Of a DNA stretch of 42,595 nucleotides, positions 5,325 to 25,845 are shown in pieces. The stretch is from contig JAGXBI010000001.1 of the NCBI GenBank assembly GCA_018971155.1, positions 1-42,595 on the forward strand. The letters run 5' to 3'. A program made the translations under genes and the position numbers. The notes beneath the pieces were generated by a model. It had not been told where the DNA came from. It worked only from the letters and a program-made list of their open reading frames with translations, and made no database searches. The stretch comes from Burkholderiales bacterium (GTDB lineage Bacteria > Pseudomonadota > Gammaproteobacteria > Burkholderiales > Burkholderiaceae). Numbering within the stretch: position 1 is the stretch's first letter; each line of letters opens with the position of its first letter.

Positions 5325-6221
5325 TCAGTACACCCCGGCCTCGCCTTCGGGCCGTGTCTTGAAGCGCTTGTGCACCCAGTAGTACTGCTCGGGCATGCGC
5401 AGGATCTGCTCTTCGAGGAACGCATTCATGCGGCGCGTATCGGCCACCGGATCCCCGCTCGGGTAATTCTCCCAGGGCGCGAACACCTTGAGCTTGTAGC
5501 CGCGGTAATTCGGCAGCACCTCGGTGACGATCGGCAGGATCTGCGCACGCCCGGCCTGCGCCAGGCGCGAAATCGATGTCAGGGTGCATGCCTGTACGCC
5601 GAAAAACGGCACGAACACCGAATTGCGCAAACCGTAGTCCATATCGGCGGCCAGCATGATCGGCTTGCGCTCGCGCAGCACCCTCAGCACCTCTCGCGCG
5701 CTGTCGGCGCGCGATATCATTTCGGCGTCGAAGCGGCCGCGCTGGCGTTTGGCCAGCGCATCGAAAAACGGATTCGACATCGGCGTATAGAGTGACGCGC
5801 ACGGCCGCCTCAGCGCATGATTGATGAATATCGAGCCGGCCTCGATGCCGACGAAATGAAAGCCGAGCAGAATCGTCGGCGGCATGTCGGGATCGGTCAG
5901 GTCGACCTCGCTCTCGACCTGCACCAGTCGCTCCATCTTCTCGCGGTCGGCAAACCACTGCACGCTGCGCTCGGCGTAGCTGCGAATCGCGTGCCGGAAC
6001 GCGGCGCGCGCCACGCGCTCGCGCCGCGCGTCATCCCAGTGCGGGAAACACAGACGCAAATTGGTGTGCACGACCCGGCGGCGCGAACTGGGGATCAGGT
6101 ACAGCAGGCTGCCCAGCGCATCGCCGAATCGGCCCACCACCCCATAAGGCAGGCAATTCAGGGCACGCAACAAGGTCGCGCCGAACAAGTAACCGAATTT
6201 CCCGGATTTCTTCTTGGACAT
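5325..6221 (-). CDS. lpxL: Lipid A late acyltransferase (LpxL/HtrB family)
   Basis: [13 protein letters not shown] (HxxxxD/E), FVPFFG and [15 protein letters not shown]. Start at MSKKKSG. Confidence 0.88.
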
Positions 6222-6293
6222 AATCGAATCACAATCAAGCGCGAAGCCGCTTAGCTCCCGCCCGCCTATCCATGGCGAACCACCTGCGGCGGC

Positions 6294-6326
6294 TTGACAG
6301 CGCAAAAATTTTCAGAGGCGTATAAT
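6294..6326 (+). promoter_or_regulatory. Putative sigma70 promoter for metK
   Basis: Perfect TATAAT at 6321-6326. TTGACA at 6294-6299, but the spacer is 21 bp. The implied TSS near 6333 coincides with the start of the leader's P1 helix. Confidence 0.55.
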
Positions 6327-6329
6327 AAA

Positions 6330-6414
6330 CGGATCGCCGAGTTAACAGACAACTTGCGGGGCGATTCGCGGCCAGGGTAACCGGGCCGTCAGTAAAGTAA
6401 TCCGCTAAAGCGTC
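6330..6414 (+). ncRNA. Candidate SAM-II-like riboswitch aptamer (long-loop variant) in the metK leader
   Basis: P1 CGGAUCGCC(6330-38)/GGCGAUUCG(6360-68); L1 GAGUU; pseudoknot CUUGCGG(6353-59)/CCGCUAAAG(6402-10) plus GAC/GUC; inserted hairpin CGGCC-A-GG-GUAA-CC-G-GGCCG. Located upstream of SAM synthetase. Confidence 0.68.
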
Positions 6415-6469
6415 GCCGCTTCAACGAAAGACGGCAACGTGAAAAGCCAAAATCGTTTAGGAGCTTGAA

Positions 6470-7648
6470 GTGGCGACCGACTACCTGTTTACCTCCGAGT
6501 CCGTTTCCGAAGGTCACCCCGACAAGGTGGCCGACCAGATTTCCGATGCCGTGCTCGATGCCATCCTGACCCAGGACAAGTATGCGCGCGTCGCAGCCGA
6601 GACGCTGTGCAACACCGGCCTGGTCGTGATGGCCGGAGAAATCACCACCACCGCCACGGTCGATTACCAGCAGGTCGCGCGCGACACCATCCGCCGCATC
6701 GGCTACGACAACACCGATTACGGTATCGACTATAAGGGCTGCGCGGTTCTCGTGGCTTACGATCGCCAATCGCCCGACATCGCGCAAGGCGTGGACCGTG
6801 CCCACGACGACAACCTCGATCAGGGCGCCGGCGACCAGGGCCTGATGTTCGGTTTCGCCTGCAACGAGACGCCGGAGCTGATGCCGCTGCCGATCTATCT
6901 GGCGCACCGTCTGGTCGAGCGGCAGTCCGAGCTGCGCCGCGACGGCCGCCTGAACTGGCTGCGCCCGGATGCCAAGTCGCAGGTGACGATCCGCTACGTC
7001 AACGACCGGCCCCACAGTATCGACACAGTCGTGCTTTCGACCCAGCATCATCCGGACATCGCGCTGGACAAGTTGCGCGAGGCAGTCATCGAGGAAATCA
7101 TCAAGCCGGTGCTGCCGAAGGATCTCATCAAGGGCGACGTCAAGTTCCTGGTGAATCCGACCGGACGCTTCGTGGTGGGTGGCCCGCAGGGCGACGCCGG
7201 CCTGACCGGGCGCAAGATCATCGTCGACACTTACGGCGGAGCCGCGCCGCACGGCGGCGGCGCCTTCTCCGGCAAGGACCCGTCCAAGGTCGACCGTTCG
7301 GCCGCCTATGCCGGCCGTTATGTCGCGAAAAACATCGTGGCCGCCGGTCTGGCGGAAAAATGCCTGATTCAGGTGTCTTATGCGATCGGCGTGGCGCGCC
7401 CGACCTCGGTGATGGTCAATACCTTCGGCACCGGCAAGGTCAGCGATGCGAAGATCACCGAACTGGTGATGAAACACTTCGACCTGCGACCCAAGGGCAT
7501 TATCCAGATGCTCGACCTGCTGCGACCGATTTACACCAAGGCCGCAGCCTACGGCCACTTCGGTCGCGAAGAGCCGGAGTTCAGCTGGGAAGCGACCGAC
7601 AAGGCCGCCGAATTGCTGGCCGACGCCGGTTTGCGCGCCGTGGCCTGA
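6470..7648 (+). CDS. metK: S-adenosylmethionine synthetase
   Basis: [39 protein letters not shown] and AYGHFGR. GTG start with AGGAG SD at 6459-6463. Confidence 0.98.
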
Positions 7649-25769: not shown

Positions 25770-25845
25770 TGGTGGCCTGGGACGGAATCGAACCATCGAC
25801 ACACGGATTTTCAATCCGCTGCTCTACCAACTGAGCTACCGGGCC
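25770..25845 (-). tRNA. tRNA-Phe(GAA)
   Basis: GGCCCGGTAGCTCAGTTGGTAGAGCAGCGGATTGAAAATCCGTGTGTCGATGGTTCGATTCCGTCCCAGGCCACCA. 76 nt, cloverleaf, encoded CCA. Confidence 0.97.

What the first reader, a model, noticed from the sequence alone, without database searches (positions are those of the whole stretch)
6330..6414. Variant SAM-II-like riboswitch upstream of metK, with an inserted GNRA hairpin and a substituted ligand-pocket base
Seen in sequence: a 9-bp P1 (6330-38 with 6360-68) whose loop contains GAGUU...GAC..CUUGCGG. A distal CCGCUAAAG-C-GUC (6402-14) can pair with that loop to form an H-type pseudoknot. Between them is a hairpin CGGCC-A-GG-GUAA-CC-G-GGCCG (6369-88) and an A-rich linker. 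Established knowledge: SAM-II aptamers have the order GAUUU ... UUGC ... GCUAAA, with the U of GCUAAA and the L1 uridines forming the SAM pocket, and they occur before met/metK genes. Inference: this is a long-L3 SAM-II relative. The first U of GAUUU is replaced by G, which could change affinity or specificity (SAM, SAH or another adenosyl metabolite) and could cause standard models to miss it. I cannot tell whether it is already catalogued.
Basis: partly seen in the sequence, partly recalled or inferred. Interest (0 to 1): 0.8.

Follow-up and report, generated by a model that had tools for sequence, protein, structure and literature searches.

The report
SAM-II-type riboswitch variant before metK
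The leader of the SAM-synthetase gene metK carries a pseudoknot-type RNA motif that is conserved across Burkholderiales and missed by the Rfam library; it is a diverged branch of the known SAM-II riboswitch and likely lets the cell turn metK down when S-adenosylmethionine is plentiful, although binding and switching are untested.

Summary
The element is real. It stands before metK in 24 of 24 same-genus relatives and in 109 of 119 collection hits, and P1 and one P2 pair covary. No Rfam family matches it. It is a metK-associated branch of SAM-II. (2) The L3 hairpin is common (105 of 109) but variable; GNRA loops occur in 5 of 109. (3) G6341 is the family norm (105 of 109). It maps to a position that props the SAM-pairing uridine; all four SAM-contacting bases are kept, and U returns before metK in several lineages, so a changed ligand is unlikely. 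(4) G does not explain the Rfam miss: U-form copies are missed too. (5) Two G-form rows already stand in a 2007 published SAM-II alignment. Added here: a candidate switch downstream, an ON hairpin (6411-6439) competing with a helix over the start codon (6415-24/6465-74). An equilibrium test showed no switching, so that step is inferred and kinetic. A 2014 survey found no metK regulator in beta-proteobacteria; this likely fills that gap. The scan reported this element before in other genomes.

The parts
6321..6326 (+). -10 box TATAAT of the likely metK promoter; predicted start about 6332-6334
   Evidence: same spacing in 78 of 104 homologues. TTGACA at 6294-99 is 21 nt away, and the promoter scan found no full site. 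Start not mapped.
6333..6338 (+). P1 5' strand (conserved 6 bp; 6330-32 can extend it but are probably not transcribed)
   Evidence: covariation
6339..6345 (+). L1 GAGUUAA, predicted third strand; G6341 = U10 of SAM-II / U8 of SAM-V; U6342 = predicted sulfonium contact
   Evidence: GAGUUAA in 101 of 109 metK leaders, L1 not part of the search pattern; mapping inferred
6348..6350 (+). P2a 5' strand GAC, pairs with GUC 6412-14
   Evidence: 98% paired, no covariation (3' side fixed by the search pattern)
6354..6359 (+). P2b 5' strand UUGCGG; U6355 = predicted sulfonium contact
   Evidence: G6358-C6403 pair: G-C 79, A-U 26, G-U 2, unpaired 0 of 107
6360..6365 (+). P1 3' strand
6369..6388 (+). Variable L3 hairpin (GUAA loop here)
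   Evidence: z -3.4; a hairpin of <= -3 kcal/mol in 105 of 109 homologues, GNRA loop in 5 of 109, L3 14-44 nt
6389..6401 (+). A-rich linker, likely minor-groove contacts to P1
   Evidence: consensus AAAU before the P2 strand; role inferred from SAM-V
6402..6414 (+). P2 3' strand CCGCUAAAGCGUC; U6406 predicted to pair with SAM adenine, A6409 predicted to bind the amino-acid end
   Evidence: contacts
6411..6439 (+). Predicted ON hairpin: CGUCGCCG 6411-18 with CGGCAACG 6432-39; takes GUC away from P2a
   Evidence: minimum-energy fold of transcripts ending at 6440-6470; 57 of 106 homologues vs 70 of 318 shuffled controls
6415..6424 (+). Anti-initiation strand GCCGCUUCAA, pairs with 6465-74 over the GUG start (predicted OFF helix)
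6460..6474 (+). Shine-Dalgarno GGAG (6460-63) and start-codon region that the OFF helix covers (6465-74)
   Evidence: SD itself predicted 0.82 unpaired, GUG 0.0
6470..7648 (+). metK, SAM synthetase, 392 aa

Best explanation
This is a conserved, covarying SAM-II-type pseudoknot motif in the metK leader that likely binds SAM and likely turns metK translation down. Shown: the motif, P1 and P2 covariation, retention of the four SAM-contacting bases, the association with metK, and the complementarity downstream. Inferred: transcription starts near 6333 and P1 folds first. Without SAM, the aptamer's 3' end (CGUCGCCG) is captured during transcription by CGGCAACG (ON hairpin 6411-39), which leaves the ribosome site free. 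With SAM bound, the triplex and P2a lock GUC 6412-14, the ON hairpin cannot form, and GCCGCUUCAA pairs over the GUG start next to the Shine-Dalgarno site (OFF). G6341 would replace the single U-to-U hydrogen bond by a G-to-U one and tune affinity without changing the ligand. In Rhodocyclaceae-like relatives the same ON strand lies inside a terminator-like hairpin, so there the output would be termination.
For: Conservation. Covariation: 216 cells with a change on both sides vs 94 in shuffles, 0 of 500; slid controls 38-51% paired vs 91%. Pocket: direct contacts in SAM-V are U47, A50, U9, U20, all kept; U8/U10 only bonds to U47/U44. Gene context: metK 109 of 119 and one metF; sister GAUUU elements stand before metX/metZ-like genes in the same genome and were called canonical SAM-II by McCown 2017. 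G and U interchange before metK: 5 changes on a quick MetK tree, at least 2 forced by strong branches. Two G rows in the 2007 SAM-II alignment. Platform: the 12-mer after the aptamer pairs with its own initiation region at -11.9 kcal/mol on average vs -8.9 for other species' regions (best of 5000 permutations -9.7) and -4.8 to -7.5 for 12-mers from other offsets. The ON helix shows a two-pair lineage swap, GCCG/CGGC (17) vs GCGC/GUGC (17). Terminator-like hairpins in 22 of 104 leaders by a loose rule.
Against: No binding or reporter data. The equilibrium two-state test showed no switch: mean accessibility of the initiation region 0.35 free vs 0.37 in the bound mimic, a slight shift the wrong way (p 0.008, n 106); in the window 0.35 vs 0.35, and the OFF helix wins by 2.8 kcal/mol without ligand. 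The model therefore needs kinetic trapping. The ON arm beats shuffled targets only modestly (-9.2 vs -7.9) and pairs at 7 of 8 or better in only 60 of 107. P2a shows no covariation, and most P2 columns were fixed by my search pattern. Covariation counts sequences, not events. U10 is nearly invariant in classical SAM-II (45 of 47 genomic rows of the 2007 alignment have U; 31 of 31 before met biosynthesis genes here), so the strong preference for G before metK is unexplained. No Rfam SAM model scores it.
Confidence: 0.75

Rival explanations
1. The G-form is a specificity variant that senses SAH, the SAM/SAH ratio or another adenosyl metabolite (MTA, decarboxylated SAM).
For: G in 105 of 109 metK leaders and 30 of 35 in the model-based set, against U in 31 of 31 sister elements before metX/metZ/metH/metY-like genes; the position flanks the adenine-binding U. 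Single-base specificity switches are known in other classes (search listing: spermidine variant of SAM-I).
Against: Both sulfonium-sensing uridines and both hydrogen-bonding anchors are kept. U-forms occur in the same metK context in several lineages with otherwise the same subfamily sequence. The gene set (metK, metF) is the usual SAM set. The SAH riboswitch is a separate family in these genomes.
Confidence: 0.1
2. The aptamer binds SAM, but the output in this genome is not start-codon occlusion. It could be Rho-dependent termination or mRNA decay, or the start-codon helix is constitutive and only dampens translation.
For: The OFF helix is the equilibrium fold with or without the ligand mimic; the Shine-Dalgarno site itself stays mostly unpaired in the window; relatives use terminator-like hairpins.
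Against: No intrinsic terminator on the + strand here; species-specific complementarity to the own initiation region; the ON hairpin is the predicted fold during transcription.
Confidence: 0.2
3. A conserved leader structure bound by a protein (for example MetK itself or another regulator), or a relic aptamer that no longer binds a metabolite.
For: No ligand data; Rfam SAM models give no score.
Against: The invariant bases are those of the SAM pocket, and the layout matches the RF00521 consensus block by block and the 2007 alignment.
Confidence: 0.08

Closest known systems
SAM-II riboswitch (Rfam RF00521 SAM_alpha; Corbino 2005 PMC1273637; alignment of Barrick and Breaker 2007 PMC2258182)
   Same: P1 plus pseudoknot P2; block order GA-N-UU ... 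CUUGC ... GCUAAAG; promoter directly before P1; met/SAM gene context. Two G-form rows (Dechloromonas aromatica RCB, Polaromonas sp. JS666) are in the 2007 alignment.
   Different: G at the U10 position as the norm; AAC in place of RGC/AGC before UUGC; one extra P2 pair (G6358-C6403); usually a hairpin in L3; sits before metK; no score with RF00521; output through a separate downstream helix.
metXZ element of beta-proteobacteria (Leyn 2014 PMC4239095; called canonical SAM-II in McCown 2017 PMC5473149)
   Same: Sister group: GCGCC GAUUUGA ... AGCUUGCG GGCGC ... GCUAAAGC; found by my model at low scores; two such copies in this genome.
   Different: U at the U10 position (31 of 31), stands before metX/metZ/metH/metY-like genes, usually followed by a terminator. 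Leyn 2014 looked for a metK element and reported none.
SAM-V riboswitch (Rfam RF01826; structure in PMC6061858)
   Same: Same pocket; a general hairpin (P3) in L3; translational OFF control.
   Different: In SAM-V the Shine-Dalgarno site is part of P2a; here it is 46 nt downstream and is reached by a separate helix. No RF01826 match in this genome at E <= 10.
SAM-II long loops (Rfam RF01726; Weinberg 2010 PMC2864571)
   Same: SAM-II with insertions that defeat the standard model.
   Different: Bacteroidetes and marine; no match in this genome.
SAM/SAH riboswitch (RF01727) and SAH riboswitch (RF01057)
   Same: metK or SAM-cycle context.
   Different: Different families; no match to this element. 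SAH riboswitches occur elsewhere in the same loci.

Membership tests
SAM-II class (general, incl. SAM-V) | P1 stem supported by covariation | tested here: met
   7 of 9 pairs with changes on both sides; inner 6 pairs 91.6-100% paired
SAM-II class (general, incl. SAM-V) | H-type pseudoknot P2 between the P1 loop and the 3' strand | tested here: met
   9 pairs, 98-100% paired; one free pair covaries G-C 79 / A-U 26 / G-U 2 with no mismatch; the other 3' columns were fixed by the pattern, so support rests on one pair plus conservation of GAC
SAM-II class (general, incl. SAM-V) | Bulged U pairing with SAM adenine (U44/U47) and A binding the amino-acid end (A47/A50) | tested here: met
   U6406 and A6409 present; part of my pattern but also kept in the MetK-anchored set; roles
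SAM-II class (general, incl. SAM-V) | Two uridines flanking the sulfonium (U11/U21; U9/U20) | tested here: met
   U6342 invariant in 107 of 107 and not part of the pattern; U6355 present
SAM-II class (general, incl. SAM-V) | U at L1 position 10 (U8 in SAM-V), bonded to U44/U47 | tested here: not met
   G6341; G in 105 of 109. The published SAM-II alignment admits 2 G rows of 47 genomic rows, so this separates a variant and does not exclude it from the class
SAM-II class (general, incl. SAM-V) | 5' UTR of methionine/SAM genes, promoter just before P1 | tested here: met
   109 of 119 before metK; -10 box 12-13 nt before L1 in 78 of 104
SAM-II class (general, incl. SAM-V) | Binds SAM and rejects SAH | not testable with these tools
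   needs in-line probing or ITC
SAM-II class (general, incl. SAM-V) | Ligand-dependent expression platform | tested here: inconclusive
   competing helices conserved, but no switch at equilibrium
Rfam RF00521 SAM_alpha (curated family) | Score at or above 36 bits | tested here: not met
   no match at E <= 10; homologues missed
Rfam RF01826 SAM_V | Score at or above 41 bits; Shine-Dalgarno inside P2a | tested here: not met
   SD at 6460-63, outside the aptamer
Rfam RF01726 SAM-II long loops | Score at or above 44 bits | tested here: not met

The most novel reading that the evidence does not exclude
The G-form is a distinct SAM-II subclass whose U10G change retunes the pocket, to a much weaker SAM set-point or to another adenosyl metabolite or the SAM/SAH ratio. 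It would be the missing feedback control of SAM synthetase across most Burkholderiales, and its tandems with canonical SAM-II in front of an uncharacterised 100-residue protein and a MATE pump would be two-input gates.
Probability: 0.12. Interest if true: 0.75.

Novelty: new variant of a known kind. Interest (0 to 1): 0.4.

Why it matters
Leyn et al. 2014 state that metK is not under any known methionine regulator in beta-proteobacteria and that their search for one failed. This element likely closes that gap for Burkholderia, Cupriavidus, Ralstonia, Pandoraea, Achromobacter/Bordetella, Sutterellaceae and Rhodocyclaceae (named records). It justifies a new or widened Rfam model, and it offers a natural G/U pair at a position thought near-invariant, testable in one ITC series. 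It is a known aptamer class with a known logic, and two G-form rows were filed as SAM-II in 2007, so the surprise is moderate.

Tried and rejected
Rfam at gathering score over the whole window (only a tRNA) and at E <= 10 on 6000-6700 (two irrelevant chance hits). RF00521 over the own genome: nine weak hits, none here; the three I inspected lie in unrelated DNA. RF01826 and RF01726: no hits. 'G causes the Rfam miss' rejected (in one search only 150 candidates per genome were scored, one search is the direct test). 'GNRA hairpin matters as a motif' rejected. '9-bp P1' rejected. Intrinsic terminator in this leader: none. Equilibrium two-state folding: no switch. RNA-run contigs: in three runs pieces begin at 6347, 6370 and 6381 and run into metK, in a fourth a piece begins at 6156; contigs cannot show a start or transcription, so inconclusive. 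Literature: 8 full-text searches gave no paper describing a beta-proteobacterial metK riboswitch; one search was too loose to be informative. Supplements that could hold these RNAs were unreadable (McCown 2017; Sherlock 2022) or held only in part (Corbino 2005, one small file, no hits). The careful MetK tree did not finish; the quick tree was used.

Full report
Observation. The gene downstream is metK, 6470-7648; a lipid A acyltransferase gene runs the other way from 6221. P1 and the L3 hairpin each beat 200 of 200 shuffles. Rfam 15 gives no match at gathering score or at E <= 10, nor do RF00521, RF01826 or RF01726 run over the genome.

Conservation. Anchored on the MetK protein, 24 of 24 same-genus leaders and 2 of 5 leaders from other families carry the motif within 260 nt. 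Two of the same-genus leaders match records named Pandoraea over the stretch printed, so the window is probably from that genus. An exact two-block pattern hits 35 of 401 genomes of the order in 8 families; 28 of 30 fetched loci precede metK. Of these 109 precede metK, one metF, one a small unknown ORF, and 8 look like chance hits. A covariance model built from 107 of them (3 of the 109 were left out for a long or unresolved L2) matches 72 of 151 genomes of the order, a count that includes weak hits to the sister group described below. It matches 14 of 151 genomes of the phylum, two of them apparent chance hits in coding DNA.

Structure. On the 107-row alignment 91.1% of cells pair (83.6% shuffled, 38-51% slid), with 216 cells changed on both sides against 94 (0 of 500 shuffles). 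The inner six P1 pairs are 91.6-100% paired and covary; the outer three are 45-59% paired. A -10 box lies 12-13 nt before L1 in 78 of 104 homologues, which places the start at the first base of the 6-bp stem. In P2 the one pair left free by the pattern is G-C 79, A-U 26, G-U 2 with no mismatch; P2a is 98% paired without covariation. Rows are related, so these counts overstate independent events. L3 is 14-44 nt, holds a hairpin in 105 of 109 and a GNRA loop in 5 of 109. SAM-V has a general hairpin at the same place (PMC6061858, parts 2-3 of 5 read).

The G. L1 reads GAGUUAA in 101 of 109, with G at the third place in 105, U in 2, C in 1, one unresolved. By alignment to the RF00521 consensus and the 2007 SAM-II alignment, G6341 is U10 of SAM-II and U8 of SAM-V. 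In those structures this base gives one hydrogen bond to the U that pairs with SAM's adenine (PMC3303485 passages). The bases that touch SAM are U47, A50, U9 and U20 in SAM-V, here U6406, A6409, U6342 and U6355, all kept. That G N1-H can replace U N3-H is my inference. In the model-based set, 30 of 35 metK elements have G (one row was misparsed by the script and corrected) and 5 have U, while 31 of 31 sister elements before metX-, metZ-, metH- and metY-like genes have U (genes named by short protein motifs). On a quick MetK tree of 59 rows (49 G, 9 U, 1 C) the U label needs 5 changes, at least 2 forced by strong branches. G and U thus interchange in one gene context, which favours one ligand. 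Why G is preferred before metK is unexplained; a different set-point is the simplest guess.

Why Rfam misses it. Not because of G or the L3 hairpin: short-L3 members with U (L214, L218) and with G (L210, L216) get no RF00521 hit at E <= 1, and two canonical GAUUU paralogues in this genome, before metZ-like and metX-like genes, are missed as well. The model is tuned to alphaproteobacterial sequences (inference); sister-group copies score 19-44 bits.

The 12 nt after the aptamer pair with the own initiation region at -11.9 kcal/mol on average, against -8.9 for other species' regions (best of 5000 permutations -9.7), -7.8 shuffled, and -4.8 to -7.5 for 12-mers from other offsets (n 107 with the window, 3 dropped for no start codon, and a few starts were mis-picked). 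In the window this is GCCGCUUCAA 6415-24 over 6465-74, covering the GUG but not the GGAG. A competing hairpin, 6411-18 with 6432-39, uses the P2a strand. It is the minimum-energy fold for transcripts ending at 6440-6470. In transcripts cut before the ribosome site, GUC pairs downstream in 57 of 106 homologues against 70 of 318 shuffled controls, and the helix shows a two-pair swap between lineages. About 13 of the 22 terminator-like leaders (of 104) have this ON strand inside a G+C hairpin followed by a U run, which fits the same OFF logic. Against the model: at equilibrium on full leaders the bound mimic is not less accessible (0.37 vs 0.35 free), and in the window the OFF helix wins by 2.8 kcal/mol without ligand. 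Polarity and mechanism are inferred and need kinetic control.

What is in print. Leyn 2014 (PMC4239095, passages) found no regulator for metK in beta-proteobacteria but described the metXZ element; McCown 2017 (PMC5473149, passages) calls that element canonical SAM-II. The supplement of Barrick and Breaker 2007 (PMC2258182; searched, and part 89 of file 2 read) holds two G-form rows among 47 genomic SAM-II rows, from Dechloromonas aromatica and Polaromonas JS666. Their sequences fit this subfamily; the part I read does not give their downstream genes, and the SAM-II passages of the main text do not mention them. Sherlock 2022 (PMC9481103, passages) reports 44 tandem SAM-II pairs, some with terminator then anti-RBS, like the tandems seen here, so an in-house alignment may already hold this subfamily; its supplement and that of McCown 2017 could not be read. 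Also seen: Corbino 2005 (parts 1-2 of 5), Weinberg 2010 (passages and supplement search), and term searches in PMC8632094, PMC7736828 and PMC5737381 with nothing relevant. Eight library searches found no description of this element; the library lacks most subscription papers. Earlier AI notes of this scan describe the same element in other genomes; my reading was set down before I opened them, and they are not independent evidence.

Verdict. Real, widespread, works like SAM-II and most likely is a diverged SAM-II subfamily for metK; it is not a member of any curated Rfam family. New variant of a known kind, interest 0.4. Probability that it is a SAM-sensing OFF switch about 0.75; changed ligand about 0.1.

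Noticed in passing
L188 (G000:C90, 16891, - strand) and L189 (G000:C368, 8651, - strand): Two canonical GAUUU SAM-II-like elements in the same genome, before a metZ-like gene (with terminator) and a metX-like gene; both missed by RF00521. Genes named from their translations only.
   Followed up: partly
L188:482-620 (+): Rfam Bp2_287 (RF02424, 'Burkholderia sRNA') matches the opposite strand of the metZ SAM-II element plus terminator (60.1 bits, E 2.4e-11, cut-off 70; weaker in L126, L063, L214). That sRNA family may be the reverse complement of a SAM-II riboswitch.
   Followed up: partly
L062, L063, L126, L202, L206, L211, L213, L214, L215, L224, L231: Tandems: a canonical SAM-II (44.4 bits in L126, Silvimonas terrae, above the cut-off), in several followed by a terminator-like hairpin, then a metK-type element (G, U or degenerate L1), in front of a 95-112 aa ORF starting MYDC/MFDC. 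None of the 8 such ORFs tested has a Pfam hit; the L217/L062 copy is followed by a MATE transporter. Fits the tandem SAM-II pairs of Sherlock 2022; the small protein is uncharacterised here.
   Followed up: partly
L278, L279, L280, L282, L283, L286: One gammaproteobacterial family outside the order (6 of 6 genomes; a Pseudomonas P11 sRNA lies in L283, so probably Pseudomonadaceae) carries a U-form relative with L3 hairpin before a conserved 102-106 aa ORF; no Rfam hit on the three tested. The ORF was not identified.
   Followed up: partly
L096: A metK-type element with a shortened L1 (GUUUAA) before metF in a Gammaproteobacteria MAG.
   Followed up: partly
L067, L083, L124, L238, L245, L262: Some metK elements have a long insertion in L2 instead of, or besides, L3.
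   Followed up: no
L028, L029, L030: Three metK leaders of the same order lack the element within 260 nt of the gene start; several families had no model match in the genomes searched.
   Followed up: no
window 25773-25845 (-): A tRNA gene, the only Rfam match at gathering score in the window.
   Followed up: no
window 5325-6221 (-): Divergent lipid A lauroyl acyltransferase gene (NF005399, 508 bits) shares the 250-bp intergenic region with metK.
   Followed up: no
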